Notes: generated by a model not told the origin, from the sequence alone. A DNA stretch of 64,000 nt from an uncultured bacterium (GCA_963701645.1 OY969616.1:502463-566462); one strand, 5' to 3'. Shown: positions 6,434-51,428, counted from the first letter of the stretch. Program-made: numbers and translations.

Positions 6434-6468
6434 GAACAAATTTTTTTTAACGGTATAAAGGTATTTGA

Positions 6469-23786: not shown

Positions 23787-23789
23787 TTT

Positions 23790-23817
23790 TTGCATTTTTA
23801 CTCTTTGCTGGTACACT
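23790..23817 (+). promoter_or_regulatory. Putative internal promoter TTGCAT-16-TACACT
   Basis: -35 at 23790-23795 and -10 at 23812-23817, 40 nt before the ATG at 23857, followed by GAAACTAATTTT. It resembles the MKY-family promoters. Confidence 0.4.
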
Positions 23818-23856
23818 GAAACTAATTTTAAATATTCCAAAAAAAAGGATGATCGT

Positions 23857-27096: not shown

Positions 27097-28012
27097 GCCG
27101 TTTATTATTAGTATGATACTTGCTTGTTTGGCATCGGTTGTGTGCAGTATTCCCGGAACATTTTTGGTGCTTCGTGGTGTTGCGCTCATGAGTGATGCAA
27201 TTAGTCATACATTATTGTTTGGTATTGTCATGACATTTTTGTGCGTGCAAACACTTCATACACCGCTATTATTTGTTGGTGCAGTATGCTCTGGCCTGAT
27301 GATGGTTTTTGTTGTCGAATGCATTGTCCATACGCGACGCATGACGGAAGATGTGGCAATTGGCACCATATTTCCTATCTTTTTTTCGCTTGGCGTTATT
27401 TTGATGTGTTTATTTGTGCATGATGTCCATCTTGATGTTGATATGGTTCTTTTGGGCGATCTTGCATTTGCTCCCTTTGATCGATTTATCTGCCTGGGAA
27501 TCGATTGTGGTCCCTGGGGGTTGTGGATTTTGAGTAGTGTACTTTGTATCCACGGTGCAGCTATTTTTTGTATGTATTATGCACTTCAGTATGCTTTTTT
27601 TGATATGGAAGGGGCATCAATTATGGGTGTACGCGTGCGTCTTGTGCAGTATGGCCTGATGGCAATTACCGCATTGTCAGCAGTTGCCGCATGCCATGTT
27701 GTTGGAAGCATTGTTGTTGTGGCACTCATGATTACGCCGCCAGCAGGAGCATATTTGTTGACGGAACGAGTTTTTCCCATGCTCATGGTGAGTATTTTTA
27801 TTGGGATCTGTGCATCACTGTGTGGCTATGGAGCAGCGCAGTATGCAGATGTTTCTATTGCAGGGTCAATAGCGGCAGTCAATGGGCTTATTTTTTTGTG
27901 TATCCTCTTTTTTGCTCCGCGCAAAGGAATTATAGGTACCTGGTGGTACGGCCGAGCCTGTCGGCGTGTGTATGCGGAGAAATTGGCGGAAGCCTACTTT
28001 TTAAAAAAGTAG
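27086..28012 (+). CDS. Metal ABC transporter permease (TroD-like)
   Basis: Second polytopic permease, paralogous to the first. ATG 27086 overlaps the upstream stop. Confidence 0.9.
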   Translation: MFHEPFIISMILACLASVVCSIPGTFLVLRGVALMSDAISHTLLFGIVMTFLCVQTLHTPLLFVGAVCSGLMMVFVVECIVHTRRMTEDVAIGTIFPIFFSLGVILMCLFVHDVHLDVDMVLLGDLAFAPFDRFICLGIDCGPWGLWILSSVLCIHGAAIFCMYYALQYAFFDMEGASIMGVRVRLVQYGLMAITALSAVAACHVVGSIVVVALMITPPAGAYLLTERVFPMLMVSIFIGICASLCGYGAAQYADVSIAGSIAAVNGLIFLCILFFAPRKGIIGTWWYGRACRRVYAEKLAEAYFLKK

Positions 28013-30517
28013 TTGCAGCAATTCTGGGAGCGCGCTGGGATCTATTTGTTTTGTTACTGTCGTAATAATGTCTTGTTTTGTCTTTTCAGGTTGCGCATTG
28101 AAAAGTTTGGCAACGTGTTCTACCAGGGATATAAAATTCTTGTCATTCCTCAGATCATTCCAGAAATGTTTTCCCATGCACATTAAAATATATTCGCAGC
28201 ATGCTTTTTGATAGACATCGGTCGTGATAGTTGGGAGTACGCGATTGATATGGGCAACAGAGCCGACTGTTAAAGAATCATCGGTGGCGGTACAGGTATG
28301 CAAGAACTCAACAAAAGCAGATGCATCTTTTTTTGCGATTAAGGCTTCATTGATTTTTTTTTCAAACAAATAAAGTATGCTATTTTCTTGCGGGGTTCGA
28401 ACGAATAATATGCAGAGAATCTCTGCCTGATTAAAGATGTTATTCATATTTGTCGACAGTGCTAAAAATAAAAATAATGGGTCGTTCAGCTGGGTCTGAA
28501 AAATTTTGTTACGCTGATAAAGCTGTTGAGCGGCATGAGGGTAGCATGCAGAAAGATTGCGAATAAGGGAATTTTTTGGCAGCAATGGAAGAATAAGATT
28601 GAGTATGTGTGCTTCTTTTTCAATGGTATTTGCCGTGATAACTTCCAGTTTTGGATGAGTGGGAGAAAAAGTGATCTCCATTTTAACCGGTATTTTATTG
28701 ACAGAACTACTCAATGCTATCAAAGGAGATTGAGTTGTGTGCAGCATTGCATCATTAACTGTTTTTATATTTTCAGATACATCAAAATCAAACACGGTGC
28801 ATAACTCTTCAAAACTGTTTATCTGGGTACCAAAAAAATAATTTATAAGGGAGACAATATTACTGGGATATCCGGCAAGCTCACCAAGGGCATAGCTACT
28901 ATCAACAAATTGGTGGGGACCAAAATTTTCCGAATATTCTTTTCCTTGAATTGGATGCAAAAAAGGCTGATCTGTATTTTTTTGTGCGGGTTGAGAATTA
29001 TCAGTTTTTATTTTGAATAAATATTTGATGCCGGGAATGTCGGACATGAGTTCTGTGAGTTCTGTATGTAAGGGGATTTTTTCTACGATTGTTGCATCGG
29101 GATAGTGTGTAAAAAATTCTTGCAGAGCAGCACCATGCAGCTTTAATATTGTTTTATCAAAAGGAATACCTTTATCATCTAAATACGTTGTTATTCTTGG
29201 TATAATCAGTGATGGAATAAAGATTGCTTGTTCAAAATTATAGGCACCAATTTTGGCTATAATAATCCGAAGAAAATTCATAAACACCGCTTCAGCGCAG
29301 TTCTGAAAACCCATATTTTTTACAGAAACTCCCTGAAATCGTATTTTAGGAGGCAAGCTGGTGCTGAGATTCCAGAGGGCTTCATAGGCAAGTTGTTCAT
29401 AATGTGTGTTGACAAAAGATTTAATTTCTTTTTTGAACTTGGGCTTCCATATTTTCCAGTGCTCACTTTTCTTTGTTATATTTTTTGTGTGATCAAGCTT
29501 TGCATTAAATAACTGCGCCGCATCTTTTTTAATAATAGAGGGATTAAACTGATTGAAATAGATAAAAAAATCGTCTTTGGTTGTTGCTTGTTCATAAAGG
29601 AGCGACAATAAAATGGTATGAGGCGTATATTTCGGATAGATTGCAGTGTCGGTATTGTGCCCAATATGTCCTGCTTCTCTGAGGGCACCTACAAGAGTTT
29701 TTGCCATTTTTGCTGCAGCTATTTTCATAAAATGCCATGATTTTTTATTTTCTTTTTCTTGAACGTTCAGTTTTTTTAATTCCTCGACCAAATTTTTCAG
29801 GTTTGTTATGTATTGTGATTTTCTGTCGGATTGTACCGATTCAAAAAGTTTTTCTATAAAACCTTCTTTTGCATCAGCCAAGCGTTGCAAGCTTCTCTTC
29901 CATTGCTGCTCAGTAAACTGGAAGTATCTTTTTTGCTGTAAAATTTTGGCTAGTGCGAGATCAGTGTCTTTTTCCATGAGGGTAAAATTATTTTTTGCTC
30001 GAATGCCCAGATCCTTAACTGCCTTTGCGATATTTTTCGTTGTTTTAGCTGCTGGTGTTGCAGAAAATATAATTTCTGCCAAAGACTTTTGCAATGTCTT
30101 TACGTGCTTTTCATCGCCCCCATCAAACTCATCTATTTTTGATAATAATTGTCCGATAATATCAGCCGTAAGATGTGTGGCGGGCTTGGTGGGGACATTT
30201 GTTCTGCCAAACTGTCCCGGAACACGATGGAAAAGGCTTAAAATGAGATGCATGGTACTGTCTGCTTTTATGATTTTTTCGACCACGTCATTGGCATCAA
30301 GTTCCACCGTTGCATTACCCCAGACATAATATTTTTCAAGAAGCCCTGATTCGATCCAAATAAAGCCATGAAAAGGAGATAAATATTTCTTTTCTTCAAT
30401 GACCGTATCATACAAACCCCGCAGATCCCGCTTGTCTGCAATGCGAGGGTTGATGACAAAAAAAAGAGAGCTCGTGATAAAAACGAGAAAAAAAATTATT
30501 TGGTGTTTTTTGATCAT
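28001..30517 (-). CDS. Giant-paralog family member 1 (838 aa, shortest), N-terminal membrane anchor
   Basis: MIKKHQIIFFLVFITSSLFFVIN anchor, then the conserved module RIADKRDLRGLYD..YVWGNATVELDAN. Conserved FQNCAEAVFMNFLR and GPHQFVD motifs. Last gene of the operon. Confidence 0.9.
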   Translation of the reverse strand: MIKKHQIIFFLVFITSSLFFVINPRIADKRDLRGLYDTVIEEKKYLSPFHGFIWIESGLLEKYYVWGNATVELDANDVVEKIIKADSTMHLILSLFHRVPGQFGRTNVPTKPATHLTADIIGQLLSKIDEFDGGDEKHVKTLQKSLAEIIFSATPAAKTTKNIAKAVKDLGIRAKNNFTLMEKDTDLALAKILQQKRYFQFTEQQWKRSLQRLADAKEGFIEKLFESVQSDRKSQYITNLKNLVEELKKLNVQEKENKKSWHFMKIAAAKMAKTLVGALREAGHIGHNTDTAIYPKYTPHTILLSLLYEQATTKDDFFIYFNQFNPSIIKKDAAQLFNAKLDHTKNITKKSEHWKIWKPKFKKEIKSFVNTHYEQLAYEALWNLSTSLPPKIRFQGVSVKNMGFQNCAEAVFMNFLRIIIAKIGAYNFEQAIFIPSLIIPRITTYLDDKGIPFDKTILKLHGAALQEFFTHYPDATIVEKIPLHTELTELMSDIPGIKYLFKIKTDNSQPAQKNTDQPFLHPIQGKEYSENFGPHQFVDSSYALGELAGYPSNIVSLINYFFGTQINSFEELCTVFDFDVSENIKTVNDAMLHTTQSPLIALSSSVNKIPVKMEITFSPTHPKLEVITANTIEKEAHILNLILPLLPKNSLIRNLSACYPHAAQQLYQRNKIFQTQLNDPLFLFLALSTNMNNIFNQAEILCILFVRTPQENSILYLFEKKINEALIAKKDASAFVEFLHTCTATDDSLTVGSVAHINRVLPTITTDVYQKACCEYILMCMGKHFWNDLRNDKNFISLVEHVAKLFNAQPEKTKQDIITTVTKQIDPSALPELLQLLF

Positions 30518-30524
30518 AATTATC

Positions 30525-33500
30525 CTACGATTCCAACGCTTTTTTTACGGCTCTTAAAATTGGTTCTTTCTTTTTTTCCAAAAGCTTCTTTTCTGTGCGC
30601 AATGTTTTAAGATCATAATTTGTAGGATCTTCTGCCTCAAGCTTTTCAATTTTTTCTTTGCGAATCTGTATTTGTGTATAGAACAAATTTGATAGCGGGT
30701 TAAGAGATTCATATAATTGGGAATTGGTCATTTTTGTAGCAATAATTCTGTGCATTTTTACTAATATGTTTTCATATGGTTTTGTAATACAAAATGTAAA
30801 AAATGAGGTGAGGCAAGTTTTGATAAGCGGTGTAGTTTGTGCATCAAGACTTTCTGCTTTATTATAAAATGAAAGCATATTATCTATTATGTTGGCGTAA
30901 CAATTTTGAAAGGCTCTGATATCCTCCGATTCCCTTATTAAATCTGTCAATGTCTTGCTTGTATCAGTTGCAAGAAATTTTTCTATACCGCTTGCAAAAA
31001 ATGTTTTTATAAAAGGGAAAAATAGAGTTTTTTGATATTCTATAATTTCTTTTGTCGCTGAAATAATAGTATGGGCAAGAAATTCTGACATGTCCGGTTC
31101 ACTGAGATATGTGGTGATGTATTGTACATTAAATAATTTATTTGCAATCTCTTCTGTGATGGAATATAACGATGTTCCTGGTGTAATATTTTTGTTAATG
31201 AGTTTTAATAATAATATGCCTGCATCGTGAAAAGATCCGAAATCTTCCATGAATTTTGATTGATGAAGGAGTGTAAAGAGTAATGGAAATAAGAAGGAAG
31301 CATCAGCCTCTATAATTTCAGTTTCAGTACTCCATGCATTATGTTTAAACATATTACTGAGAATAGATTGTATTTTTTTTTCTTTTTCTTCTGGAGTGAA
31401 AAAATCAGTTTTTGTGTGGTGTAGTACTTGCAAATAGTTTACTTTATTAGTGCGAGGAAAAAGTTCTCCTTCCAGTGCTAATTTTAAACAAGGAATAAGT
31501 GAATCAGGTATTGTTTGCAATTCAGAACTTGTCAAACTTTCAATGATAATAGCTTGTTGTACGTCTATAGGTTGGCTATTAAGCCATGTAGTAACGGTAT
31601 CAAGAATAGAAACAAAGTGAGAGTCGGTAGCAAACTGTTCCCAATGGTGGTTAACAATAAATTTTAATACATCTGGATAAACGAGCCCTTTTAAAGTTTG
31701 CTTTTTCTTTGAATCTGGTGGGAAACAAGAAAGTAATTTTTCCATGAGCGTGAGTGAATGCTCGCTCAAAATGTGTTCTTTTTTTGCAAAAGCACTTATT
31801 ATTTCTCCGATAAGATAGAGATTTGGTGAGACTATAAATGAAGCAAGCATTTTTTCTGATGTGACGTTTAAAAATTTATTCGGTTCAAATTCATTATGCA
31901 TGATTGATGTGTAAAGAAATTCTCCCTGTACTTTAGATTTCTTGATGTTACTTGATAAAGCAACAAATAAAAGATAAGCACTATCCAAAACTGTTTTGCT
32001 TACATTAAGGCGAATTTCAATTTGTTCCTTGGCATACGGGTAACAAGCGGTAAGATTTTGTATGGAAATATCTGAGGTAATCAAGGGAAGAAGATGATCT
32101 AACATTGGTTCATGTCGATCGAATGATTTATTGGTATCGACAAATTCTAAATTGGTATGACCTGTTGACAAAGAAATGGTAAGTGTTATAGGGGTATTAT
32201 TTATGATGCTGTGCATTGTTACCTTGGGAACTTTTTCTATATTCTGTTCAAAATAAGTGACCCATATATTTTTATCATCTGCTATTTGTACATCTCCGGT
32301 AAGGGCAAAATCAAAAGCGGTACACAGTTCTGAAAAGGAGGTAAAATTAGTACCAAAAAAATGATTTACTATAGTGATAAAACTGCTCGGATATCCTGCA
32401 AGTTCAAACAATGTATACTGATCATCAACAAGCTCATGATTGCCAAATTCTTCACCGTATGTTTTACCAGGAAGGGGATGCAACATGGGCTCCCTACTAT
32501 CCTTATATGCTGGTGCAGAACCATCATTTTTTATTTTTTGTAAATATTTAATACCCGGCAAGTCTGAAGAAATATCTGTCAATGTTTGGTTAATGGAAAA
32601 ACCATCAACGATTGTGGCATTACTGTATTTTTGTAAAAAATTTTGGAAAGGGAGAATATTTTCTTGCATTTTTGCTGCATTAAAGGGAATATTATTGGTA
32701 GTGAAAAATTGACTAATTTTTGAGGGAAGATCATCGGCGATAAAGAGAGATTTGCTAAAATCATATGCTCCCATTTTTGCCACAAGAACTCGAAGCAAGG
32801 TCATGATCGTTGCTTCTCCACAGTCAATAAATTCGCAACCCTTAATAGATACCCTGCTGTCTCGTATTTTAGGAGGCAAAAGTGATCCAAGGTTATAAAT
32901 AGCTTCATAGGCAAGTTGTTCAAATTGATACATAATATATGATTCTATATTGTTCCGCATACCTCTTGCCTGGCTTGTAATATCCAATGTATGATCAAGC
33001 TGTCCTTCAAAATAACCTTCTTCAGGGTGTATAATGGCGGGAGAAAATTGTTTGAAATATATAAGAAAATCATCTTTTCTAGCTGCTGCATCATATAAAA
33101 AGGAAAGTAAAATCATCTGTGTTGTGTAGGGAGGATAGCTTGGATCTTTTTGACTCGTGCGGATAATGCTGCCACATTCTTTGAGAGATTCGACCATATA
33201 TTTTGCAATGTTAGTTACCGACGATTTTAAAACGTTGAACTCTTTTGTTATAGAATCTAGTGAAGCTGTACTGTTTTTAAAATTTTCAACATATTCGGCA
33301 ACAAGGTTGGCAAGCTGTTCCTTGTCTTCTGCGGTGATAGAATCAAATAATTTTCTTATCTGTTCATTGCTGAGTTTGCTCAGATTTTGCAAACTTTTTT
33401 TCCACTGAGATTTGGTGAAATTGAAATATTGTTTAGTTTTTTTATTATTTTGTAGCTGTTGGATTGAGGGGTTTTGGAGAAGTTGCATTGTTTTATTGGC

Positions 33501-34013
33501 TATATCGACCAATATTTTTTCGCTATTCTGCATGCTATGTGCTGTGGGCAAAATATTCATAAAAATTGTGACCAGCTCTTTTTGCAATGCCGCCGCTTCT
33601 TTTTCTGTTTTCCCCTCATAGCGGTCAATGGCGGCAACCATTTTGCCAATGCTTTCAGGCGTGAGATAGCTTGCAGGGTTATTTTTTAATGTTGTTCTGC
33701 CAAACTGCCCCGGAACACGATGGAAAAGGCTTAAAATGAGACGCATGGTATTATCGGCGCTGATTACTTTTTTGACTACGCCATTAGCATCAAGTTCCAC
33801 CGTTGCATTACCCCAGACATAATATTTTTCAAGAAGCCCTGATTCTACCCAGATAAAACCATGAAAAGGGGACAGATACTTTTTTTCTTCAATGACTGCA
33901 TCATACAAACCCCGCAAATCCCGCTTATCTGCAATGCGGGACGAGAGGGGTGAGATAATGGTGATGAGAGAAAGGAATAAAAAAAATGTATATATATGTT
34001 TTGTGAATATCAT
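30525..34013 (-). CDS. Giant-paralog family member 2 (1162 aa)
   Basis: Same N-terminal module. FIDCGEATIMTLLR and GNHELVD motifs. Its stop lies 7 nt before the member 1 start. Confidence 0.9.
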   Translation of the reverse strand: MIFTKHIYTFFLFLSLITIISPLSSRIADKRDLRGLYDAVIEEKKYLSPFHGFIWVESGLLEKYYVWGNATVELDANGVVKKVISADNTMRLILSLFHRVPGQFGRTTLKNNPASYLTPESIGKMVAAIDRYEGKTEKEAAALQKELVTIFMNILPTAHSMQNSEKILVDIANKTMQLLQNPSIQQLQNNKKTKQYFNFTKSQWKKSLQNLSKLSNEQIRKLFDSITAEDKEQLANLVAEYVENFKNSTASLDSITKEFNVLKSSVTNIAKYMVESLKECGSIIRTSQKDPSYPPYTTQMILLSFLYDAAARKDDFLIYFKQFSPAIIHPEEGYFEGQLDHTLDITSQARGMRNNIESYIMYQFEQLAYEAIYNLGSLLPPKIRDSRVSIKGCEFIDCGEATIMTLLRVLVAKMGAYDFSKSLFIADDLPSKISQFFTTNNIPFNAAKMQENILPFQNFLQKYSNATIVDGFSINQTLTDISSDLPGIKYLQKIKNDGSAPAYKDSREPMLHPLPGKTYGEEFGNHELVDDQYTLFELAGYPSSFITIVNHFFGTNFTSFSELCTAFDFALTGDVQIADDKNIWVTYFEQNIEKVPKVTMHSIINNTPITLTISLSTGHTNLEFVDTNKSFDRHEPMLDHLLPLITSDISIQNLTACYPYAKEQIEIRLNVSKTVLDSAYLLFVALSSNIKKSKVQGEFLYTSIMHNEFEPNKFLNVTSEKMLASFIVSPNLYLIGEIISAFAKKEHILSEHSLTLMEKLLSCFPPDSKKKQTLKGLVYPDVLKFIVNHHWEQFATDSHFVSILDTVTTWLNSQPIDVQQAIIIESLTSSELQTIPDSLIPCLKLALEGELFPRTNKVNYLQVLHHTKTDFFTPEEKEKKIQSILSNMFKHNAWSTETEIIEADASFLFPLLFTLLHQSKFMEDFGSFHDAGILLLKLINKNITPGTSLYSITEEIANKLFNVQYITTYLSEPDMSEFLAHTIISATKEIIEYQKTLFFPFIKTFFASGIEKFLATDTSKTLTDLIRESEDIRAFQNCYANIIDNMLSFYNKAESLDAQTTPLIKTCLTSFFTFCITKPYENILVKMHRIIATKMTNSQLYESLNPLSNLFYTQIQIRKEKIEKLEAEDPTNYDLKTLRTEKKLLEKKKEPILRAVKKALES
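31405..31864. repeat. 460-nt block identical (1 mismatch at 31800) to 38323-38782
   Basis: Line-by-line comparison of member 2 and member 4 DNA, offset 6918. Confidence 0.9.
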
Positions 34014-34015
34014 AA

Positions 34016-37000
34016 TTATTCTCCTGTTATTTTTTTGACAGCACTGAGTATGGACTGTTTATCATTTTCTAAATCATTTTTTCTATCGAAAAAACGACGG
34101 AGGTCGGGATTATCGGGATCTTCTTTTTCAAGAGTATTAATTTTTTCTGTATAGAGTTGTAATTGTGTCTCAATTAAGTTGGGCAAGACTTTAAAACATT
34201 CATACAGTTGGGGATCTGCTATTTCGATATTGAGAATATCTTGCAATTTTGGCGCAACAGATGAGTTGTATTGTGTAATACAAGATGTCAAAAAGGATGT
34301 CAGGCATGTTTTGATAAATGGCAGAGTAAGTTCATCGATGTTTTCTGCCTCATTATAGAAAAGTAACATTTGCTCCACTACAGTAGCATAAAATAATAGA
34401 AAATCGACAGATTCTTGGTCATCAAAGATGGAGCTTTCTAAGAAAAATTTTTCTATAAAAGAATAACATATCGTTTTTTGATTGACTGCGATATCACCTA
34501 TAAGAAATGTTAAATAATCGAGAAGAGATGGAATGTCTTTGCTATTTAAATGGGTACGAATGTATCGTATATTAAATATCTTGCTCGCTACATTTTCGGT
34601 TATGGCATAGAGAGGTGTTCCTGGAATTATGTCTTCATTAAGAAGTTCGTTTAATAGTTCTATTCCATCATTTGCAAAAGCGATAGGACCTTTTGGTTCT
34701 GCTGTATTCATTTTTTTGATTAAAAAAGGGAAAAGAAAAGAAAGACCTTGTTCTACAATATTCTTTGCAGTTTCCCATATACTTTTTTCGGGGAAAATTT
34801 TAGACTCAAAAGGCTGTATAATTTTTTCTTTTTCTTCTTCTGTGAAAATAGTACCAGTATTATCTACTACCCTTATATAAGATATGATTCCAGCGTACTC
34901 TTGGGTCAAGGGACCATGATTGATTGATGCTTTTATGATGGGAATTAAGGTATCAGGTATTGCTTGTGGGGAAAATGTTTTTAGTACATTAAAGATAATG
35001 TTCTGTTGCATATCAATTCTTTGCTTTGACAGCCATGTGTTAATGGTATCAAGGATAGTGATAAATTCAGAATTAGTAGCAAATTTTTCCCAATTATTCT
35101 TAAAGATAATTTTTAATATTTTTTCATACGCGTTTTCCTTTTGTATATCTGATGTAATACAAGAAAGGAATTTATGCATTAAAGCAAAAGTATGAGTGCT
35201 TAACTGTTTCAGGTCAAAAAAATTGGTTAAAAAATAAACTGACAGATTTTCATCATTTTTTGATACGACCATATTTACAATTTTTTCTGTTACGCTATAC
35301 AAAGGTTTGGTTGGTTCAAATTGGTTTTTACTGATTAATTTGTCAAGAAGATAAAACAGAGATTTACTAATGTTGCCTGATAAAGCAAAAAATGGAAGAT
35401 ATGCATCGTCTGATAAATTACTTAAGTAAATGCGCTCTTCCGTGCCTTGTTTTGCACGGGGATAGCATGCGCTTAAATTTCTCATGGAAAGTTCTGATGC
35501 ATGGGGGAGTATTACAATCAATATAGATTCATCTTTTTTGGGAGATTCACCAGCTTCATTTAAAAGCTCTATCGCATTATGTCTCGTAGAAAAAGAAAGT
35601 GTGAATGTTATGGGTATTTTATTGATAATTGTTTTTATCGTTATAAACCAAGTTTTATGGATGTTGTTTCTATAAAACTCTTCCCATATTTTTTTGTCAT
35701 TCCCTGTGTCAAGATTTCCTGAACCAGTACAGTCAAAAACAGTACATAATTCTTCAAAAGATGTTATGTGAGTACCAAAAAAATGATTCACCATAGCAAT
35801 ATAACTGCTTGGATATGGAGCAAGTTCAAAAAGTGTATAACTATCATCAACAAGTTCATGAGGGCCAAAATCTTCTCCATATGCTGTATTGGCAACAGGG
35901 TGAATTACTGGTATTTTGTTATCCCTGACTGCCGCACTAGAAAGATCATTTTTTATTTTTTGTAAATATTTGATTCCCGGTATATTGGTAAAAATATCAG
36001 TCAATGCTTGGGACATTTTTGTATCAGATACAATAGTAGCATCACTGTATTTTTTAAAAAATTCTTGCAGAGAAGCAATGTTTTTTTGCATCAAATCTTG
36101 ATTAAATGGAACATGTTGCTCGTGAAAAAACTTTGTAATTTTTGATGGTATTGCATTTGCATCAAACAGGGTAGTTTCAAAATTGTATGCTCCTATTTTT
36201 GCCATAATAATGCGAAAAAATGACATAAGGGCTATTTCTGTGCAGTTACTAAATTTAATATTTTTGATAAAAATAGGATCATCTGTAAAAGATATTTTGG
36301 GTGGCAAGGATGATGCAAGATTATAAATGGCTTCATAAGCAATTTGTTCAAAATGAGTATTAATAAAATAAAGTTGGTGTTCGGGATCGGGATTTTTTTC
36401 TACATTGAGTCTATAATCTAATTTTCCTTCAAAAAGTTGTTCGCTATTTTCTTGTAAAATTGAAGGATCAAATTGCTTGAAATATATCATAAAATCATCT
36501 TTTGTTTTTGCTTTTTCATACAGCAAAGAAAGTAAGATCATGTGTGTTGTATAAGAGGGATAAATTGGCTCATAGTTTGTTGGAATGAATCCACATTCTT
36601 TGAGTGATTCGACAATCATTTTGCTTACTTTTGGAACAGCAAGCCGCAATGCTTTAGATTGCTTTTTACTCTTTTCTTCCTCTATAGCTGTTTTGAAGTC
36701 GCCAACAAGGCTGATAATTTTGTCTCTATAGAGTTCCTTTTCTGTATCCTGTCTTTCTTCAAATAATTGGCGTATGTTTTTGTCAGGTAATGCGCTTAAT
36801 TTTTGCATACTATTTTTCCAATTTTTTGGTGTAAAATTAAAAAATTGTTTTGTTTTTTTATTTTGCTGCAGTTTTTTTATGTAAGGAATTTGGTCAAGCA
36901 ATATGAGTTCTTTACGAATGGCCTCCATTTTTGGCTCAAAGACGCCCATAAGAATATCTTGGATTTCCTGTTCCAGCATGGGGCCTCTTGCTTTTTCTGG

Positions 37001-37414
37001 ATTTTCTTCTATGAGCGTTTCTGTCCGATCTATAGCGGCAACTATTTTTCCGATAACTTCAGGTGTAAAGTAAGTGGCAGGATTGGTTTTTGTTGTTGTT
37101 GGACCGAATTGGCCAGGAAGACGATAGAAAAAATTTAAAATGCAGAGCATAGTATTGTCTGCTTTTATGATTTTTTCGACTACCCCATTCGCATCAAGTT
37201 CCACCGTTGCATTGCCCCAGACATAATATTTTTCAAGAAGCCCTGATTCTACCCAGATAAAACCATGAAAAGGGGATAAATATTTCTTTTTTTCAATGAC
37301 TGCATCATACAAACCCCGCAAATCCCGCTTATCTGCAATGCGAGAGTTGATGACAAAAAAAAGAGAGCTCGTGATGAAAACGAGAAAAAAGATTATTTGG
37401 TGCTTTTTGGTCAT
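34016..37414 (-). CDS. Giant-paralog family member 3 (1132 aa)
   Basis: Its anchor is almost identical to member 1. FSNCTEIALMSFFR and GPHELVD motifs. Its stop lies 2 nt before the member 2 start. Confidence 0.9.
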   Translation of the reverse strand: MTKKHQIIFFLVFITSSLFFVINSRIADKRDLRGLYDAVIEKKKYLSPFHGFIWVESGLLEKYYVWGNATVELDANGVVEKIIKADNTMLCILNFFYRLPGQFGPTTTKTNPATYFTPEVIGKIVAAIDRTETLIEENPEKARGPMLEQEIQDILMGVFEPKMEAIRKELILLDQIPYIKKLQQNKKTKQFFNFTPKNWKNSMQKLSALPDKNIRQLFEERQDTEKELYRDKIISLVGDFKTAIEEEKSKKQSKALRLAVPKVSKMIVESLKECGFIPTNYEPIYPSYTTHMILLSLLYEKAKTKDDFMIYFKQFDPSILQENSEQLFEGKLDYRLNVEKNPDPEHQLYFINTHFEQIAYEAIYNLASSLPPKISFTDDPIFIKNIKFSNCTEIALMSFFRIIMAKIGAYNFETTLFDANAIPSKITKFFHEQHVPFNQDLMQKNIASLQEFFKKYSDATIVSDTKMSQALTDIFTNIPGIKYLQKIKNDLSSAAVRDNKIPVIHPVANTAYGEDFGPHELVDDSYTLFELAPYPSSYIAMVNHFFGTHITSFEELCTVFDCTGSGNLDTGNDKKIWEEFYRNNIHKTWFITIKTIINKIPITFTLSFSTRHNAIELLNEAGESPKKDESILIVILPHASELSMRNLSACYPRAKQGTEERIYLSNLSDDAYLPFFALSGNISKSLFYLLDKLISKNQFEPTKPLYSVTEKIVNMVVSKNDENLSVYFLTNFFDLKQLSTHTFALMHKFLSCITSDIQKENAYEKILKIIFKNNWEKFATNSEFITILDTINTWLSKQRIDMQQNIIFNVLKTFSPQAIPDTLIPIIKASINHGPLTQEYAGIISYIRVVDNTGTIFTEEEKEKIIQPFESKIFPEKSIWETAKNIVEQGLSFLFPFLIKKMNTAEPKGPIAFANDGIELLNELLNEDIIPGTPLYAITENVASKIFNIRYIRTHLNSKDIPSLLDYLTFLIGDIAVNQKTICYSFIEKFFLESSIFDDQESVDFLLFYATVVEQMLLFYNEAENIDELTLPFIKTCLTSFLTSCITQYNSSVAPKLQDILNIEIADPQLYECFKVLPNLIETQLQLYTEKINTLEKEDPDNPDLRRFFDRKNDLENDKQSILSAVKKITGE
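35575..35830. repeat. 256-nt block identical to 39071-39326
   Basis: Member 3 compared with member 4, offset 3496. Confidence 0.9.
36532..37276. repeat. 745-nt block identical to 40046-40790
   Basis: Member 3 compared with member 4, offset 3514. The identical spurious antisense ORFs at 36803..37138 and 40317..40652 are a by-product. Confidence 0.92.
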
Positions 37415-37421
37415 AATTATC

Positions 37422-40400
37422 CTACGATTCCAACGCTTTTTTTACAGCTTTTAAAATTGGTTCTTTCTTTTTTTCCAAAAGTTCCTTTTTTGTGCGCAGC
37501 GATTCAAGATCAAAATAAAGATCGGGATCTTTACTTATTGTTGGATTTTTTGCCTCAAGTTCTTCAACTCTTTTTGTATGTATCTTTATTTGCGCATCAA
37601 ATAAGCTTGATATGGGATTAAGAGATTCATATAGCTGCGAATTGGTTATTTGTGTTGCAATGATTCTTTGCATTTTTAACAACATTTTTTTATTTGGTTC
37701 CATGATACAAAATTTAAAAAATGAAGTGAGGCAACTGTTAATAAGAGGTGTAATTTGTGCATCAAGACTTTCTGCTTTGTTATAAAAGGAAAGCATAATA
37801 TCTATTATATCAGCGTAACAATTTTGGAAAGTTAAGGGATTTTCCTTTTTAGCTAATGCATTTGTACGTGTATTAGCTATATCACTTGAAAAATATTTTT
37901 CTACGCTAGTTAAAAATAATGTTTCTATGTAGGGAAAAAATAGAGCTTTTTGTTCTGTTATAATTGTTTTTATACTTGGAATAAGAATTTCGTGAAGGAA
38001 TTCTGATATGGAACTATCGATGAAATTTGTAGTGATGTAGTGTACATTAAATAATCGTTTTGCAACGTATTCTGCCATGAAATATAAAGGGGTTTCTGGG
38101 ATGATATTTTTGTCTATTAATTTTGATAAAAAGGTGCCTGCCCCTTCAAAATTCATGCGACCTTTTATGGATTTTGCTTGAATTTGTTTATACAGTAATG
38201 GAAATAAGAAAGAGGTATTATTACTACGCATGATGTCAGTTGCAGTTCTCCATAGGTTACGTTGAACCTCATTGCTAAAAACGGATTGTATTCTTTGTTC
38301 TTTGTCTTCTTCCGTAAAAAAGTCAGTTTTTGTGTGGTGTAGTACTTGCAAATAGTTTACTTTATTAGTGCGAGGAAAAAGTTCTCCTTCCAGTGCTAAT
38401 TTTAAACAAGGAATAAGTGAATCAGGTATTGTTTGCAATTCAGAACTTGTCAAACTTTCAATGATAATAGCTTGTTGTACGTCTATAGGTTGGCTATTAA
38501 GCCATGTAGTAACGGTATCAAGAATAGAAACAAAGTGAGAGTCGGTAGCAAACTGTTCCCAATGGTGGTTAACAATAAATTTTAATACATCTGGATAAAC
38601 GAGCCCTTTTAAAGTTTGCTTTTTCTTTGAATCTGGTGGGAAACAAGAAAGTAATTTTTCCATGAGCGTGAGTGAATGCTCGCTCAAAATGTGTTCTTTT
38701 TTTGCAAAAGCACTTATCATTTCTCCGATAAGATAGAGATTTGGTGAGACTATAAATGAAGCAAGCATTTTTTCTGATGTGATGTTTAAAAATTTGTTAG
38801 GTTCAAATTCATTGCGCTTGATTGATATAGAAAGAAATTGACTTTGTATTTCAGATTTACTGATATTACTTGATAAGGCGACAAATAAAAGATAAGCACT
38901 ATCCAAAACTGTTTTACTTAAGTTCAGACGGCTTCCAAATTTCTCTTTAGCATAAGGGTAGCATGTTGTAAGATTTCGTATCGAAATATCTGAGATAATA
39001 AAGGGAAGAAGATGATCTAACATTGGTTCATGTCGATCGAATGATGTATTGGTATTTAAAAATTCTATGCCATTATGTCTCGTAGAAAAAGAAAGTGTGA
39101 ATGTTATGGGTATTTTATTGATAATTGTTTTTATCGTTATAAACCAAGTTTTATGGATGTTGTTTCTATAAAACTCTTCCCATATTTTTTTGTCATTCCC
39201 TGTGTCAAGATTTCCTGAACCAGTACAGTCAAAAACAGTACATAATTCTTCAAAAGATGTTATGTGAGTACCAAAAAAATGATTCACCATAGCAATATAA
39301 CTGCTTGGATATGGAGCAAGTTCAAAGAGTGTATAATTATCATCAACAAGTTCATGGGTGCCAAAGTCTTCTGTATAGATTTTATCAGGAAGAGGATGAA
39401 GAACTGGATTAGCACCATTTTTTTTGGCTTCTTCAGAACCATTGTTGTTAATTTTTTGTAAATATTTTATTCCTGGTATGTTGGTAAAAATATCTGTTAA
39501 TGCTTGGGCCATATTTGGATTAGATGCAATGAAAGCACTGGTATATTTTTTAAAAAATGCTTGTAGAGGAGCAATATTTTTTTGCATCAAATCTTGATCA
39601 AATGGAACATGTTGTACGTGAAAAAATTCTCTGATTTTTTGTGGTATAGCATCTGCATCAAACAGTGCATTTTCAAAATTATATGCTCCTATTTTTGCCA
39701 TAATAATGCGGAAGAATGACATAAGAGTTGCTTCTGCGCAGCTACTAAAAGTAGTATTTTTAATAATGACATTGAGCCAAGGTAATTTGGGGGGCAATAA
39801 TGATTGTAGATTGTGAATAGCTTCATAGGCAATTTGTTCGAAATTGGTAATGATAAAAAGAAGGAGGTTTTCTTTATCTTCTCCTTCTGCTACTTTTTCT
39901 TCTACTTTTTTTGATACATTGAGTGTATGATCTAATTTTCCTTCAAAAAATTTTTCGCTTTTTTCTTGTAAAATTGAAGGATCAAATTGCTTGAAATACA
40001 GTATAAAATCATCTTTTGTTTTTACTTTTTCATACAGCAGAGCGAGTAAGATCATGTGTGTTGTATAAGAGGGATAAATTGGCTCATAGTTTGTTGGAAT
40101 GAATCCACATTCTTTGAGTGATTCGACAATCATTTTGCTTACTTTTGGAACAGCAAGCCGCAATGCTTTAGATTGCTTTTTACTCTTTTCTTCCTCTATA
40201 GCTGTTTTGAAGTCGCCAACAAGGCTGATAATTTTGTCTCTATAGAGTTCCTTTTCTGTATCCTGTCTTTCTTCAAATAATTGGCGTATGTTTTTGTCAG
40301 GTAATGCGCTTAATTTTTGCATACTATTTTTCCAATTTTTTGGTGTAAAATTAAAAAATTGTTTTGTTTTTTTATTTTGCTGCAGTTTTTTTATGTAAGG

Positions 40401-40991
40401 AATTTGGTCAAGCAATATGAGTTCTTTACGAATGGCCTCCATTTTTGGCTCAAAGACGCCCATAAGAATATCTTGGATTTCCTGTTCCAGCATGGGGCCT
40501 CTTGCTTTTTCTGGATTTTCTTCTATGAGCGTTTCTGTCCGATCTATAGCGGCAACTATTTTTCCGATAACTTCAGGTGTAAAGTAAGTGGCAGGATTGG
40601 TTTTTGTTGTTGTTGGACCGAATTGGCCAGGAAGACGATAGAAAAAATTTAAAATGCAGAGCATAGTATTGTCTGCTTTTATGATTTTTTCGACTACCCC
40701 ATTCGCATCAAGTTCCACCGTTGCATTGCCCCAGACATAATATTTTTCAAGAAGCCCTGATTCTACCCAGATAAAACCATGAAAAGGGGACAGATACTTT
40801 TTTTCTTCAATGACTGCATCATACAAACCCCGTAGATCCCGTTTATCTGCAATGCGGGACAAGAGTGGTGAGATAACGGTGATGATAACCAAAAGAAAAA
40901 AATATGATTTTCTCTTTCTTATGAGGCTCCACGAGGAAAGAATGGAGAAAAAAAAGTATGATATATTACTATATTTTTGTGTCATAGCCAT
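37422..40991 (-). CDS. Giant-paralog family member 4 (1189 aa), a mosaic of member 3-like and member 2-like tracts
   Basis: First gene of the operon. FSSCAEATLMSFFR (Cys codon 39738-39740) and GTHELVD (His codon 39354-39356). The N-terminal 29 aa are encoded partly by a REP-like repeat. Confidence 0.9.
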   Translation of the reverse strand: MAMTQKYSNISYFFFSILSSWSLIRKRKSYFFLLVIITVISPLLSRIADKRDLRGLYDAVIEEKKYLSPFHGFIWVESGLLEKYYVWGNATVELDANGVVEKIIKADNTMLCILNFFYRLPGQFGPTTTKTNPATYFTPEVIGKIVAAIDRTETLIEENPEKARGPMLEQEIQDILMGVFEPKMEAIRKELILLDQIPYIKKLQQNKKTKQFFNFTPKNWKNSMQKLSALPDKNIRQLFEERQDTEKELYRDKIISLVGDFKTAIEEEKSKKQSKALRLAVPKVSKMIVESLKECGFIPTNYEPIYPSYTTHMILLALLYEKVKTKDDFILYFKQFDPSILQEKSEKFFEGKLDHTLNVSKKVEEKVAEGEDKENLLLFIITNFEQIAYEAIHNLQSLLPPKLPWLNVIIKNTTFSSCAEATLMSFFRIIMAKIGAYNFENALFDADAIPQKIREFFHVQHVPFDQDLMQKNIAPLQAFFKKYTSAFIASNPNMAQALTDIFTNIPGIKYLQKINNNGSEEAKKNGANPVLHPLPDKIYTEDFGTHELVDDNYTLFELAPYPSSYIAMVNHFFGTHITSFEELCTVFDCTGSGNLDTGNDKKIWEEFYRNNIHKTWFITIKTIINKIPITFTLSFSTRHNGIEFLNTNTSFDRHEPMLDHLLPFIISDISIRNLTTCYPYAKEKFGSRLNLSKTVLDSAYLLFVALSSNISKSEIQSQFLSISIKRNEFEPNKFLNITSEKMLASFIVSPNLYLIGEMISAFAKKEHILSEHSLTLMEKLLSCFPPDSKKKQTLKGLVYPDVLKFIVNHHWEQFATDSHFVSILDTVTTWLNSQPIDVQQAIIIESLTSSELQTIPDSLIPCLKLALEGELFPRTNKVNYLQVLHHTKTDFFTEEDKEQRIQSVFSNEVQRNLWRTATDIMRSNNTSFLFPLLYKQIQAKSIKGRMNFEGAGTFLSKLIDKNIIPETPLYFMAEYVAKRLFNVHYITTNFIDSSISEFLHEILIPSIKTIITEQKALFFPYIETLFLTSVEKYFSSDIANTRTNALAKKENPLTFQNCYADIIDIMLSFYNKAESLDAQITPLINSCLTSFFKFCIMEPNKKMLLKMQRIIATQITNSQLYESLNPISSLFDAQIKIHTKRVEELEAKNPTISKDPDLYFDLESLRTKKELLEKKKEPILKAVKKALES
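38323..38782. repeat. Partner of 31405-31864
   Basis: Same comparison as above. Looser similarity continues to about 39048. Confidence 0.9.
39071..39326. repeat. Partner of 35575-35830
   Basis: Same comparison as above. Confidence 0.9.
40046..40790. repeat. Partner of 36532-37276
   Basis: Same comparison as above. Confidence 0.92.
40905..40960. repeat. REP/RPE-like hairpin repeat copy lying inside the annotated 5' coding end of member 4
   Basis: ATGATTTTCTCTTTCTTATGAGGCTCCACGAGGAAAGAATGGAG matches the unit at 481-530. Hairpin CTCCA..TGGAG at 40927-40947. Confidence 0.7.
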
Positions 40992-45968: not shown

Positions 45969-47540
45969 TCAAAAATTAGCACCAAGCCGAACCCAGACCG
46001 CCCATTGTGATTCAGCAGTGCGGAAAAAAACGGTGGTGTCCCGTTCATTAATACCTTCAAATTCTATTTCTGCACCGACGCCAATGAGGGGGAGGAATAG
46101 CTCCGTTTCATGCTCACAGGTGTACGCATAGCCGATATAGCCGAAAAATTTGTTGGTCAGAAGAAGTTGTGTTTTGGCAGAATGACGATCAATATTATTT
46201 GGGGTGATAAAGACGGGAGAAGGGCTATCGACAACGAGCATCTGATCAGCAAATTCGTTGCCCAAAATAGTTGCAGTGCTTTGAGTTGTGGGTGCCAGAA
46301 AACCGGTGACCGGATCACTTATTTGTTGGATGCCTTTGAGACCAAGAGTGTTGTTGGTAATATTATTTTCCAATGTTACTTTTTCTTTACTTCTGATCCA
46401 TCCTTCATAGCCGAAATCAAACACAAAATTGTTGTACGTGTACGCGAGCATGAGCAAGCCATCAGCCTGAATATTATTGTGTACTTTACATTCTAGGGTG
46501 GTGCTATTAATAACTGGTGCTGCAGTTCCGGTGAATGAGCCGTTACTGAAAAGTTTTGCGGGAATATATCTGCTGGCAAAGCCATTTGGCTGGAGATCGA
46601 ATGAGCGGTACTGTTTTGAGGCAAGAAGAGTTGATAACGTGAGGTCAAGGTACACATTAAGTTGTTGCTGCCCATCTTTTTCCCAGACAATAGTGTGACC
46701 GGAAAAACCAATGCCGATTTCCGCATTGCGTCGATTACCCAGGAGTGGCTCGAACAGGAAAATACCATGAGGTCGTGTTCCTGTCGGCAATGCTGCGCGA
46801 AGACTGACCCCTGCATGACACAAATCATGGAGAAAAAAGTTCCATCCAAATTCAAGCCGCATGTCTGCAGCGCCAGCCGTTGACCGTTTTTGTATTTTGC
46901 CCCGTTGCAGTCCACCTATGGCACCATAAGAAACGTTGCCTTTCATTGCATCAATGAATGATGCAAACGGCGCGGCGAGTGGTGTTGCATTTGTGGTGAC
47001 ATAGCCGGGAGGAAACGGTGTTGCAGTGCCTGGAGCAAAAATATCTTCCGTCAAACGGAGATCCCATTGTGTCCACCCCGCAGGTAATGTTACCCGTCCA
47101 TAAATACCGCGGTAAATACACGGCATATCTATGTAAAAATCAAATTCAACAAGTGCAGTTCTGATGATCGGGTCAAGGAGTACAAAACTTGCAAATTCTG
47201 GCGAAAGACCAAAATAGTCAGCAAGGAGATCTTGTGGTCCCCGTTGCGGTACTTGGCTGCCAGAAATAGACAGATGAGCGGAGCCAAAAAGGGCTGATGC
47301 GATACGCTGTGGACGAACTGATTGTCCGTACACCGGTGTGACAAAAAAGATGCCCTGTGTTTTTTGTGTTGGCTGATAAATAAAGGGGTGAATGCCGGCA
47401 TAGCGGCGCGCTTCATTAAGACCTTGCGGGCGCGGAATAAAAACGGAAATGCCGCGCAGGGTATCATCAAAATTGCCCCCGTGCAAAAAGGCTGTTGCCA
47501 ATGTACATGCAATAAGAATACTATAGAATGCATAGATCAT
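45969..47540 (-). CDS. Porin-like outer-membrane beta-barrel paralog (523 aa)
   Basis: Signal peptide. Family motifs LLADYFGLSPEF and LPTGTRPHGIFLFEP. C-terminal beta-signal WAVWVRLGANF. Confidence 0.85.
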   Translation of the reverse strand: MIYAFYSILIACTLATAFLHGGNFDDTLRGISVFIPRPQGLNEARRYAGIHPFIYQPTQKTQGIFFVTPVYGQSVRPQRIASALFGSAHLSISGSQVPQRGPQDLLADYFGLSPEFASFVLLDPIIRTALVEFDFYIDMPCIYRGIYGRVTLPAGWTQWDLRLTEDIFAPGTATPFPPGYVTTNATPLAAPFASFIDAMKGNVSYGAIGGLQRGKIQKRSTAGAADMRLEFGWNFFLHDLCHAGVSLRAALPTGTRPHGIFLFEPLLGNRRNAEIGIGFSGHTIVWEKDGQQQLNVYLDLTLSTLLASKQYRSFDLQPNGFASRYIPAKLFSNGSFTGTAAPVINSTTLECKVHNNIQADGLLMLAYTYNNFVFDFGYEGWIRSKEKVTLENNITNNTLGLKGIQQISDPVTGFLAPTTQSTATILGNEFADQMLVVDSPSPVFITPNNIDRHSAKTQLLLTNKFFGYIGYAYTCEHETELFLPLIGVGAEIEFEGINERDTTVFFRTAESQWAVWVRLGANF

Positions 47541-47625
47541 AGCAGTACCCCGGCATAAAGTTCATCTTTTTTATCGCTTTTACTATAGGAAATTTGTGAC
47601 CGTGGAGGCAAGCATTTCTCCTTTT

Positions 47626-49446: not shown

Positions 49447-49447
49447 G

Positions 49448-51253: not shown

Positions 51254-51332
51254 AGACACTCCTTTTGCGCAGCATAGCATTCTTGTTCTTGTTATACCAC
51301 AGAAAAGAGATTTTGTGCCAACAATTTTCTAC

Positions 51333-51363
51333 AAAAAAAAGCCCGAGACATCTCGGGCTTTTT
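51333..51363 (-). terminator. Rho-independent terminator (bidirectional-looking) after 51429-53447
   Basis: GCCCGAGA/TCTCGGGC stem at 51341-51358, flanked by an A8 run (51333-51340) and a T5 run (51359-51363). Confidence 0.8.
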
Positions 51364-51428
51364 AAGTACCTATTTTGTTGCTTTATAAAGGTATGTATAT
51401 GTTCTTACATTACCCTAACAAGCACCAA

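What the first reader, a model, noticed from the sequence alone, without database searches (positions are those of the whole stretch)
38323..39326. Member 4 is a chimera: a member-2-like tract and a member-3-like tract abut at about 39049-39070
Seen: 38323-38782 equals 31405-31864 of member 2 (1 mismatch), and good similarity continues to about 39048 (GGTTCATGTCGATCGAATGAT is shared with 32108-32128). From 39071 the sequence switches to 100 percent identity with member 3 (35575-35830). The switch happens within about 20 nt. At protein level it is ...STRHNGIEFLNTNTSFDRHEPMLDHLLP: member 3 up to STRHN, member 2 from FDRHEP. A second switch back to member-3 identity occurs at 40046-40790. The extreme 5' leader again resembles member 2. 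This is a directly visible recombination footprint.
Basis: seen in the sequence. Interest (0 to 1): 0.7.

Follow-up and report, generated by a model that had tools for sequence, protein, structure and literature searches.

The report
Mosaic gene from paralog gene conversion
One of four tandem copies of a large, uncharacterised secreted-protein gene in a Dependentiae (TM6) bacterium is a real patchwork of two neighbouring copies, made by repeated gene conversion, which is a well-known process.

Summary
Four paralogous genes lie head-to-tail on the minus strand: m1 28001-30517, m2 30525-34013, m3 34016-37414, m4 37422-40991. m4 is identical to m3 over 40045-40790 (746 nt) and 39071-39326 (256 nt). 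It is identical to m2 over 38323-38782 (460 nt, 1 mismatch) and 40729-40832 (104 nt). Elsewhere the paralogs are saturated at synonymous sites (dS 1.0-1.7). Permutation, triplet and maximum chi-square tests are all decisive, and the best breakpoint falls between 39056 and 39053. Segment trees conflict with 87-100% bootstrap. There are two age layers. The older one (dS about 0.5-0.6) has an m3-like 5' half and an m2-like leader and 3' half. Recent tracts with dS about 0 lie on top of it. The best explanation is repeated homologous gene conversion between tandem paralogs. m4 is probably an m2-type copy that received m3 sequence, but direction is only inferred. The junction lies at the boundary between an alpha/beta core, which carries an invariant Cys and a near-invariant His, and a C-terminal alpha-solenoid in a confident AlphaFold model. 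Protein function is unknown: no Pfam match and no PDB fold match. This is a clean example of a known mechanism.

The parts
37422..40991 (-). Member 4 (m4). The mosaic gene, 1189 aa, intact ORF.
   Evidence: ORF list. The database copy P0001 is identical and starts 2 codons later.
34016..37414 (-). Member 3 (m3), 1132 aa. Partner for the 5' half of m4.
30525..34013 (-). Member 2 (m2), 1162 aa. Partner for the leader and the 3' half of m4.
28001..30517 (-). Member 1 (m1), 838 aa. Shorter and more divergent. Itself mosaic: leader m3-like, aa 100-310 like the unlinked paralog P0004.
40729..40832 (-). 104-nt tract where m4 is identical to m2 (33811-33914). Within it, 40729-40790 is identical in m2, m3 and m4, and the 5' switch from m2-like to m3-like lies there.
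40045..40790 (-). Recent conversion tract. 746 nt identical to m3 36531-37276. dS 0.01. Informative sites 268 m3-like to 0 m2-like.
39327..40044 (-). Older m3-like layer. Identity to m3 is 90% (dS 0.11) at 39913-40044 and 76% (dS 0.61) at 39327-39912. It is patchy. Informative sites 159 m3-like to 54 m2-like.
39071..39326 (-). Recent conversion tract. 256 nt identical to m3 35575-35830. Informative sites 88 to 0.
39046..39070 (-). Junction zone. 39054-39070 is still m3-like but diverged (13 of 17 identical). Then comes a 3-nt indel shared with m2, and from 39053 downward the sequence is m2-like. The maximum chi-square breakpoint is at 39056/39053. Corresponds to aa 641-649, at the end of the alpha/beta core.
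38783..39053 (-). Older m2-like layer. 83% identical to m2, dS 0.54. Informative sites 12 m3-like to 80 m2-like. Includes a 45-nt exact stretch at 39001-39045.
38323..38782 (-). Recent conversion tract. 460 nt identical to m2 31405-31864 except 1 mismatch. Informative sites 0 to 192.
37425..38322 (-). Older m2-like 3' part of m4. 75% identical to m2, dS 0.50. Informative sites 58 to 235.
37147..37497 (-). About 350-nt tract, about 92% identical and ungapped to 30250-30600. It runs across a gene boundary: the last 75 nt of m4 plus the spacer plus the 5' end of m3 match the last 75 nt of m2 plus the spacer plus the 5' end of m1.

Best explanation
m4 is a true mosaic gene produced by repeated, homology-dependent gene conversion (non-reciprocal recombination) among the tandem paralogs m2, m3 and m4.

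**Shown**
- Four tracts of complete or near-complete nucleotide identity (746, 256, 460 and 104 nt) are embedded in sequence whose synonymous sites are otherwise saturated.
- A second, older layer has dS about 0.5-0.6. In it the 5' half of m4 groups with m3, and the leader and 3' half group with m2.
- The main m3-like to m2-like switch is at 39053-39070.

**Inferred**
- m4 began as an m2-type duplicate. Both its ends, its leader and its stop-codon region are m2-like.
- It received an internal patch of about 1.7 kb from m3 (about 40790 to 39054).
- Later, shorter exchanges re-homogenised parts of the patch with m3, and one part of the 3' half with m2.
- The recent 256-nt tract stops 17 nt short of the old boundary. 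Beyond that boundary m3 and m4 are too different (about 55-60% identical) for a heteroduplex to extend.
- The 5' switch sits in a 62-nt stretch that is identical in all three genes. This fits resolution within perfect homology.

**Consequence for the protein**
- m4 combines m3's version of the N-terminal alpha/beta core with m2's version of the C-terminal alpha-solenoid.
- The joint lies at the structural domain boundary, and the reading frame is intact.
- The product is therefore probably a functional new module combination in a family of signal-peptide-bearing proteins of an intracellular, protist-associated bacterium.
For: - Exact repeats and their coordinates.
- Step-like sliding identity.
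- Permutation test on runs of concordant polymorphic sites, P < 1e-4.
- Triplet walk, and maximum chi-square breakpoint at 39056/39053.
- dS about 0.00-0.02 in the tracts, 0.5-0.66 in the older layer, and 1.0-1.7 background, so protein-level selection cannot explain the identity.
- Segment NJ trees: (m4,m3) has 100% bootstrap in the three 5' segments, and (m4,m2) has 87-100% in the leader and the three 3' segments.
- m2 and m3 share no significant tract outside the conserved 5' block, so m4 is the common partner.
- Junction anatomy site by site.
- Sharp tract ends, and the 62-nt stretch identical in all three genes.
- AlphaFold model: pLDDT 87, alpha/beta core up to strand 640-645, all-alpha from 656.
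- dN/dS about 0.24-0.54 in the older layer, so the genes are under purifying selection.
- GyrA is 73-74% identical to Dependentiae/Babeliales MAGs.
Against: - Only one genome carries this array: 5 homologues among 5.8 billion proteins, and no sister strain. Non-reciprocity, direction and timing therefore cannot be observed directly.
- The donor/recipient assignment rests on parsimony.
- The raw reads were not available, so the assembly could not be verified.
- The match between junction and domain boundary is a single coincidence and could be chance.
- The recent tracts could equally be m4-to-m3 and m4-to-m2 transfers.
Confidence: 0.85

Rival explanations
1. Assembly or polishing artefact. The assembler switched between paralogs at shared repeats, or short-read polishing copied one paralog onto another. 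On this view m4 is not a real chimera.
For: The three identical repeats (746, 460 and 256 nt) are longer than typical short reads and lie in tandem paralogs, which is a classic source of misassembly. Reads could not be examined.
Against: - The junction does not lie at a repeat edge shared by m2 and m3. The sequence next to the m3-identical tract (38783-39070) is unique to m4: 83% identical to m2 and 59% to m3.
- Enumerating the alternative paths through the three interleaved repeat pairs shows that every path keeps the adjacency 'm3-identical tract | unique m2-like segment | m2-identical tract'. A chimeric gene therefore exists in any resolution (inference from the coordinates).
- Polishing cannot turn 60-75% identical sequence into 100% identical sequence, because such reads do not cross-map.
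- The older layer (dS 0.1-0.6) shows the same m3/m2 partition and cannot be an artefact.
- The ORF is intact, and the contig is a single sequence of 1,478,608 bp.
Confidence: 0.04
2. A single unequal crossover or tandem duplication created m4 as a hybrid gene at birth (a Lepore-type fusion), with no gene conversion.
For: - The older m3-like and m2-like layers have similar ages, dS 0.61 and 0.50-0.54. One founding event could in principle explain this.
- A tract of about 350 nt crossing the m4/m3 and m2/m1 gene boundaries hints at duplication of a two-gene unit.
Against: - Unequal crossover between tandem genes places the hybrid between its parents, with the 5' part from the downstream gene and the 3' part from the upstream gene.
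- m4 lies upstream of both partners and has the opposite polarity: m3-like 5' body and m2-like 3' half. Its leader is m2-like as well, so the m3-like part is an internal patch.
- Four tracts with dS about 0 lie next to a layer with dS about 0.5, which requires several events of different age.
Confidence: 0.06
3. The array is a dedicated variation system of the pilE/pilS, vlsE or msp2 type. One expressed gene is continually rewritten from donor cassettes to vary a surface or secreted protein.
For: - Recurrent segmental conversion always involves m4, the promoter-proximal gene.
- The proteins have an N-terminal hydrophobic signal-like segment.
- The organism is a host-dependent bacterium.
Against: - All four genes are complete ORFs with their own start codons and signal-like leaders, separated by 2-7 nt as in an operon. 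None is a promoterless or 5'-truncated cassette.
- There are only 2-3 potential donors.
- The tracts are few and long, and they include the conserved core, not only a hypervariable region.
- No population data exist.
Confidence: 0.05

Closest known systems
Interparalog (ectopic) gene conversion and concerted evolution in bacterial multigene families. Examples are Mycobacterium tuberculosis PE_PGRS/PPE pairs (PMC1762029, PMC13061034, PMC12046097) and long-lasting concerted evolution of prokaryotic paralogs (PMC6053082). From general knowledge, also tufA/tufB and the Helicobacter pylori babA/babB genes.
   Same: - Identical tracts of a few hundred bases lie inside diverged paralogs.
- Segment trees conflict.
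- Tract ends lie in stretches of high identity.
- The reading frames are intact.
- The result is mosaic genes.
   Different: - The host is a Dependentiae (TM6) bacterium with a small genome.
- The gene family is uncharacterised.
- The partners are adjacent genes of one four-gene array.
- The main junction coincides with a predicted domain boundary, so the outcome looks like module reshuffling rather than plain homogenisation.
Cassette-based antigenic variation (Neisseria pilE/pilS, Borrelia vlsE, Anaplasma msp2, Treponema tprK). Compared from general knowledge.
   Same: Segmental, apparently non-reciprocal transfer into one gene from related neighbouring copies. The protein is probably exported.
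   Different: There are no silent cassettes and no single expression site. Donors are full-length genes that are probably co-transcribed. There are few events, and no evidence of high-frequency switching.
Expanded effector-like gene families of amoeba-associated intracellular bacteria, for example the ubiquitination-related families in Parachlamydiaceae (PMC4209131).
   Same: A lineage-specific tandem expansion of large orphan proteins in a protist-associated bacterium. In other genomes relatives are fused to LRR domains.
   Different: The family has no recognisable eukaryote-like or known enzymatic domain. Its role as an effector is only a guess.

Membership tests
Interparalog gene conversion mosaic | Identical or near-identical tracts significantly longer than expected from the overall divergence of the paralogs | tested here: met
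   Runs of 268, 156, 88, 37 and 22 concordant polymorphic sites, against a permutation maximum of 16-17. Exact repeats of 746, 395+64, 256 and 104 nt.
Interparalog gene conversion mosaic | Identity extends to synonymous sites, so it is not explained by selection on the protein | tested here: met
   dS 0.00-0.02 in the tracts, 0.5-0.66 in adjacent m4 segments, and 1.0-1.7 background.
Interparalog gene conversion mosaic | Phylogenetic incongruence between adjacent segments | tested here: met
   (m4,m3) has 100% bootstrap in S2, S3+S4 and S5. (m4,m2) has 87-100% in the leader, S6, S7 and S8.
Interparalog gene conversion mosaic | Non-reciprocal transfer: the donor is unchanged and there is no reciprocal product | not testable with these tools
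   Only one genome carries the array, and no pre-event state is available. The gene order argues against a simple crossover, but this is inference.
Unequal-crossover hybrid gene | The hybrid lies between its parents, with the 5' part from the downstream gene and the 3' part from the upstream gene | tested here: not met
   m4 lies upstream of m3 and m2. Its m3-like part is an internal patch flanked by an m2-like leader and an m2-like 3' half.
Cassette-type antigenic variation locus | One expression site plus promoterless or truncated silent donor cassettes | tested here: not met
   All four are full ORFs with ATG starts and signal-like leaders, separated by spacers of 2-7 nt.
Cassette-type antigenic variation locus | High-frequency variation of the expressed copy within a population | not testable with these tools
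   No reads and no sister strains are available.
Papain-like cysteine protease / deubiquitinase-type effector (considered for the protein) | Conserved Cys at the N-terminus of a helix and conserved His on a beta-strand | tested here: inconclusive
   Cys418 is invariant in 100 sequences and sits at the start of helix 418-433. His639 is at least 90% conserved and precedes strand 640-645.
Papain-like cysteine protease / deubiquitinase-type effector (considered for the protein) | Fold or profile similarity to a known cysteine peptidase family | tested here: not met
   No Pfam, NCBIfam or PADLOC match. No PDB sequence match. Foldseek of the core domain model (pLDDT 91.5) against the PDB gives a best E-value of 1.5.

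The most novel reading that the evidence does not exclude
The four-gene array may be a module-shuffling locus for a new class of exported Cys/His enzymes. The core fold has no counterpart in the PDB. Ongoing gene conversion would recombine variants of the catalytic core with variants of the C-terminal alpha-solenoid (the presumed target-binding part), generating new effector combinations in the arms race between a Dependentiae parasite and its protist host. The junction at the domain boundary, the LRR-fused relatives and a giant-virus homologue would then be signs of a widespread, unrecognised effector family of amoeba-associated microbes.
Probability: 0.2. Interest if true: 0.55.

Novelty: new member of a known kind. 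Interest (0 to 1): 0.3.

Why it matters
- It shows that homologous recombination between paralogs is active, and recently so, in a member of the Dependentiae. This phylum consists of host-dependent bacteria with reduced genomes, and almost no genome dynamics have been described for it.
- The target is a lineage-specific expanded family of large, probably exported proteins.
- It gives a clean, fully resolved example of multi-layer conversion, with a junction at a domain boundary. This could guide chimera design and functional tests of the family.
- It warns annotators and phylogeneticists that trees of this family must be built per segment.
- The mechanism itself is textbook.

Tried and rejected
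1. **Selection as the cause of identity.** Rejected, because synonymous sites are identical in the tracts.
2. **Single unequal crossover.** Rejected on gene order and polarity.
3. **Misassembly.** Judged very unlikely, because unique m4 sequence flanks every identical tract and the older layer shows the same partition.
4. **Search for sister strains or related arrays to compare junction positions.**
   - Genome collection with m4: no relative.
   - Metagenome contigs with the family profile: one single-copy 32%-identical homologue, L083.
   - Protein database: only 5 proteins, on two attempts.
   - Contig look-ups for P0001 and P0004: not on record.
   - The DNA of the unlinked paralog P0004 could therefore not be obtained.
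5. **Synteny.** None of the 80 gyrA loci fetched, which include related Dependentiae, carries a family member within 10 kb.
6. **Function.**
   - Pfam, NCBIfam and PADLOC gave nothing meaningful.
   - PDB sequence search gave nothing.
   - Foldseek with the full-length model gave only weak HEAT/ARM-solenoid hits (E >= 8e-4, TM < 0.2).
   - Foldseek with the core domain gave no PDB hit.
   - The cysteine-protease idea therefore remains an untested lead.
7. **Organism identity.** The two published Dependentiae isolate genomes that I read are 1.1 and 1.22 Mb, not 1.478 Mb. The exact source remains unidentified.
8. **Promoter and terminator scans** inside the array were at background level.

Full report
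**What is there**

Four paralogous ORFs lie head-to-tail on the minus strand, separated by only 7, 2 and 7 nt:

| Gene | Coordinates | Length |
|---|---|---|
| m1 | 28001-30517 | 838 aa |
| m2 | 30525-34013 | 1162 aa |
| m3 | 34016-37414 | 1132 aa |
| m4 | 37422-40991 | 1189 aa |

Upstream and on the other strand are gyrA, dprA and a Mn/Zn-type ABC transporter. On the far side are plsX and gltX. GyrA is 73-74% identical to Dependentiae/Babeliales (TM6) MAGs. The database copy of m4 comes from a single contig of 1,478,608 bp. The source is therefore a Dependentiae bacterium. It is neither of the two published isolates whose genome papers I read, which are 1.1 and 1.22 Mb.

**Check of the observation**

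A scan for exact repeats reproduces every coordinate in the finding:

| Tract in m4 | Partner | Length |
|---|---|---|
| 38323-38717 plus 38719-38782 | m2 31405-31864 | 460 nt, 1 mismatch |
| 39071-39326 | m3 35575-35830 | 256 nt exact |
| 40045-40790 | m3 36531-37276 | 746 nt exact |
| 40729-40832 | m2 33811-33914 | 104 nt exact |

- The quoted 21-mer occurs only at 32107-32127 and 39025-39045.
- Sliding-window identity changes in steps. It goes from 1.00 to 0.5-0.9 within one window at each tract end.
- The ends are sharp in the alignments.

**Statistics**

- On the 1475 sites polymorphic among m2, m3 and m4, the longest runs of agreement are 268 and 88 sites for m3/m4 and 156, 37 and 22 sites for m2/m4. 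No run longer than 17 appeared in 10,000 permutations. m2 and m3 share no significant run.
- Of 1185 informative sites, the m3-like: m2-like counts along m4 are as follows:

| Segment of m4 | m3-like : m2-like |
|---|---|
| Leader to 40791 | 9:24 |
| 40790-40045 | 268:0 |
| 40044-39913 | 36:5 |
| 39912-39327 | 123:49 |
| 39326-39071 | 88:0 |
| 39053-38783 | 12:80 |
| 38782-38323 | 0:192 |
| 38322-37425 | 58:235 |

- The maximum chi-square breakpoint lies between 39056 and 39053 (chi2 704).
- A 3SEQ-like maximum descent is 437, against a permutation maximum of 83.
- Neighbour-joining trees per segment conflict. (m4,m3) has 100% bootstrap in the three 5' segments. (m4,m2) has 87-100% in the leader and the three 3' segments.

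**Age layers**

- Synonymous divergence is about 0.00-0.02 in the identical tracts.
- It is 0.11 at 39913-40044 and 0.61 at 39327-39912 (m4 against m3).
- It is 0.66 in the leader, 0.54 at 38783-39070 and 0.50 at 37425-38322 (m4 against m2).
- All other comparisons are saturated at 1.0-1.7.
- There is therefore an old chimeric layer, with several recent exchanges written over it.
- dN/dS of about 0.24-0.54 in the old layer indicates that the genes are maintained by selection.

**Anatomy of the junction**

- Perfect identity to m3 ends at 39071.
- 39054-39070 is still m3-like, but with 4 differences in 17 nt. That is the divergence of the older m3-like layer.
- Then comes a 3-nt indel that m4 shares with m2. 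From 39053 downward the sequence is m2-like.
- The recent tract thus stops 17 nt before the older m3/m2 boundary.
- My inference is that heteroduplex or synthesis could not extend into the region where m3 and m4 are only about 55-60% identical.
- The other switch, from the m2-like leader to the m3-like body, lies inside a 62-nt stretch (40729-40790) that is identical in m2, m3 and m4. Homologous recombination is expected to resolve in such a place.

**Mechanism and direction**

The pattern is that of repeated gene conversion between tandem paralogs.

- A single unequal crossover does not fit. It would place the hybrid between its parents with the opposite polarity, whereas m4 is upstream of both. 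Its m3-like part is an internal patch between an m2-like leader and an m2-like 3' half.
- Direction cannot be read from one genome.
- The most parsimonious history is that m4 is an m2-type duplicate that received an internal patch of about 1.7 kb from m3. Making m4 the donor needs extra events to explain the unique 5' body of m2.
- I put about 0.55 on m4 as recipient of the old patch. The direction of the recent tracts stays open.

**Artefact check**

- Every identical tract in m4 is flanked by sequence unique to m4.
- I listed the alternative paths through the three interleaved repeat pairs. The adjacency 'm3-identical tract | unique m2-like 288 nt | m2-identical tract' is present in all of them. 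A chimeric gene exists however the repeats are resolved (inference).
- The older, diverged layer shows the same partition.
- Reads were not available, so this point is argued, not demonstrated.

**The rest of the array is also mosaic**

- The m1 leader and first 90 residues are 92-94% identical to m3.
- m1 residues 100-310 are 60-83% identical to P0004, a 1098-aa paralog elsewhere on the same chromosome. The same stretch is only 5-35% identical to m2-m4. The (m1,P0004) grouping has 100% bootstrap.
- A tract of about 350 nt at about 92% identity crosses a gene boundary: 37147-37497 matches 30250-30600.
- The first 200 nt or so encoding the mature N-terminus are nearly identical in all four genes.

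**What the proteins are**

- There is no Pfam, NCBIfam or PADLOC match and no sequence match in the PDB.
- Close relatives are almost absent, with 5 proteins in 5.8 billion. A profile search nevertheless finds 309 cluster representatives (134 below 1e-10), mostly over the N-terminal 440 or so positions.
- One Cys (C418 in m4) is invariant in 100 aligned sequences. E420, Y510, E557 and H639 are at least 90% conserved.
- AlphaFold with a 50-sequence alignment gives a confident model, with pLDDT 87 and pTM 0.75. Its parts are:
  - an N-terminal hydrophobic helix, probably a signal peptide or anchor;
  - a small alpha/beta unit;
  - long variable helices;
  - an alpha/beta core at 300-650, with C418 at the start of a helix and H639 just before the last strand;
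  - an all-alpha solenoid from 656 to the end.
- The m3/m2 junction (aa 641-649) therefore lies at the boundary between core and solenoid. m4 joins m3's core to m2's solenoid.
- Foldseek finds only weak HEAT/ARM-like matches for the whole protein.
- Foldseek finds nothing in the PDB for the core alone, which has pLDDT 91.5.
- It finds one match among viral models, to an uncharacterised Yasminevirus protein (E 3e-5).
- A relative in another genome (P0009) carries N-terminal LRR domains.
- A thiol-enzyme effector is a reasonable guess but was not confirmed. The fold-match criterion failed.

**Verdict**

- there are several events of different age;
- the direction is unresolved;
- the process is conversion, not a single crossover.

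The process is well known in bacteria, for example PE_PGRS/PPE genes (PMC1762029, PMC13061034) and concerted evolution of paralogs (PMC6053082). This is a new example in an unusual phylum and an uncharacterised family, with a neat junction at a domain boundary. Interest is modest.

Noticed in passing
window 28001-30517 (m1), especially codons 100-310 (about 29590-30220): m1 is itself mosaic. Residues 1-90 are 92-94% identical to m3. Residues 100-310 are 60-83% identical to P0004, a 1098-aa paralog elsewhere on the same 1.48-Mb chromosome, but only 5-35% identical to m2-m4. This suggests exchange between unlinked copies. m1 also lacks about 300 C-terminal residues and was absent from the protein database hits, so it may be annotated as a pseudogene.
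   Followed up: partly
window 37147-37497 and 30250-30600: An ungapped tract of about 350 nt at about 92% identity runs across gene boundaries. The end of m4, the spacer and the start of m3 match the end of m2, the spacer and the start of m1. It is either a conversion tract spanning two genes or a remnant of a two-gene-unit duplication.
   Followed up: partly
window 40700-40860, 37190-37345, 33785-33940, 30290-30480: The first 150-200 nt encoding the mature N-terminus (RIADKRDLRGLYDAVIEEKKYLSPFHGFIWVESGLLEKYYVWGNATVELDANG) are 85-100% identical at DNA level in all four paralogs, while the rest is saturated. This is a block homogenised across all four genes, and it may act as the recombination anchor.
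   Followed up: partly
m4 residues 300-650 (window 39042-40094). Relatives P0006-P0152.: The core domain of the family has an invariant Cys and a near-invariant His. The AlphaFold model is confident (pLDDT 91.5) but has no Foldseek match in the PDB. Its only structural match is an uncharacterised protein of Yasminevirus, a giant virus (E 3e-5). A relative (P0009, GCA_001468855.1) is fused to LRR domains. This may be an unrecognised enzyme or effector family of protist-associated microbes.
   Followed up: partly
window 45969-53447 (minus strand), 11788-17659 and 5540-7431 (plus strand): The window holds three more tandem arrays of orphan paralogs with no Pfam match where tested. One has four genes of 523-672 aa at 25-32% identity, one has three genes, and one has two. 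None has near-identical tracts. Tandem expansion of orphan families seems to be a general feature of this genome.
   Followed up: partly
window 23773-25452 (+): A 559-aa ORF with weak WD40/beta-propeller matches, a eukaryote-like domain. It sits inside the Mn/Zn ABC transporter operon, between the substrate-binding protein gene and the ATPase gene.
   Followed up: no
window 36803-37138 and 40317-40652 (+): Two identical 111-aa ORFs lie on the strand opposite to m3 and m4. They are copies of each other only because they lie inside the 746-nt identical tract, and are most likely not genes.
   Followed up: no
L083 544-4056; L001 2204-5179: In the two other genomes found with a clear homologue, the gene is the only family member on the short contig fetched. 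In L083 it lies next to a likely proS gene (by its sequence, not scanned), and in L001 next to aspS. The four-gene array may therefore be a lineage-specific expansion.
   Followed up: partly
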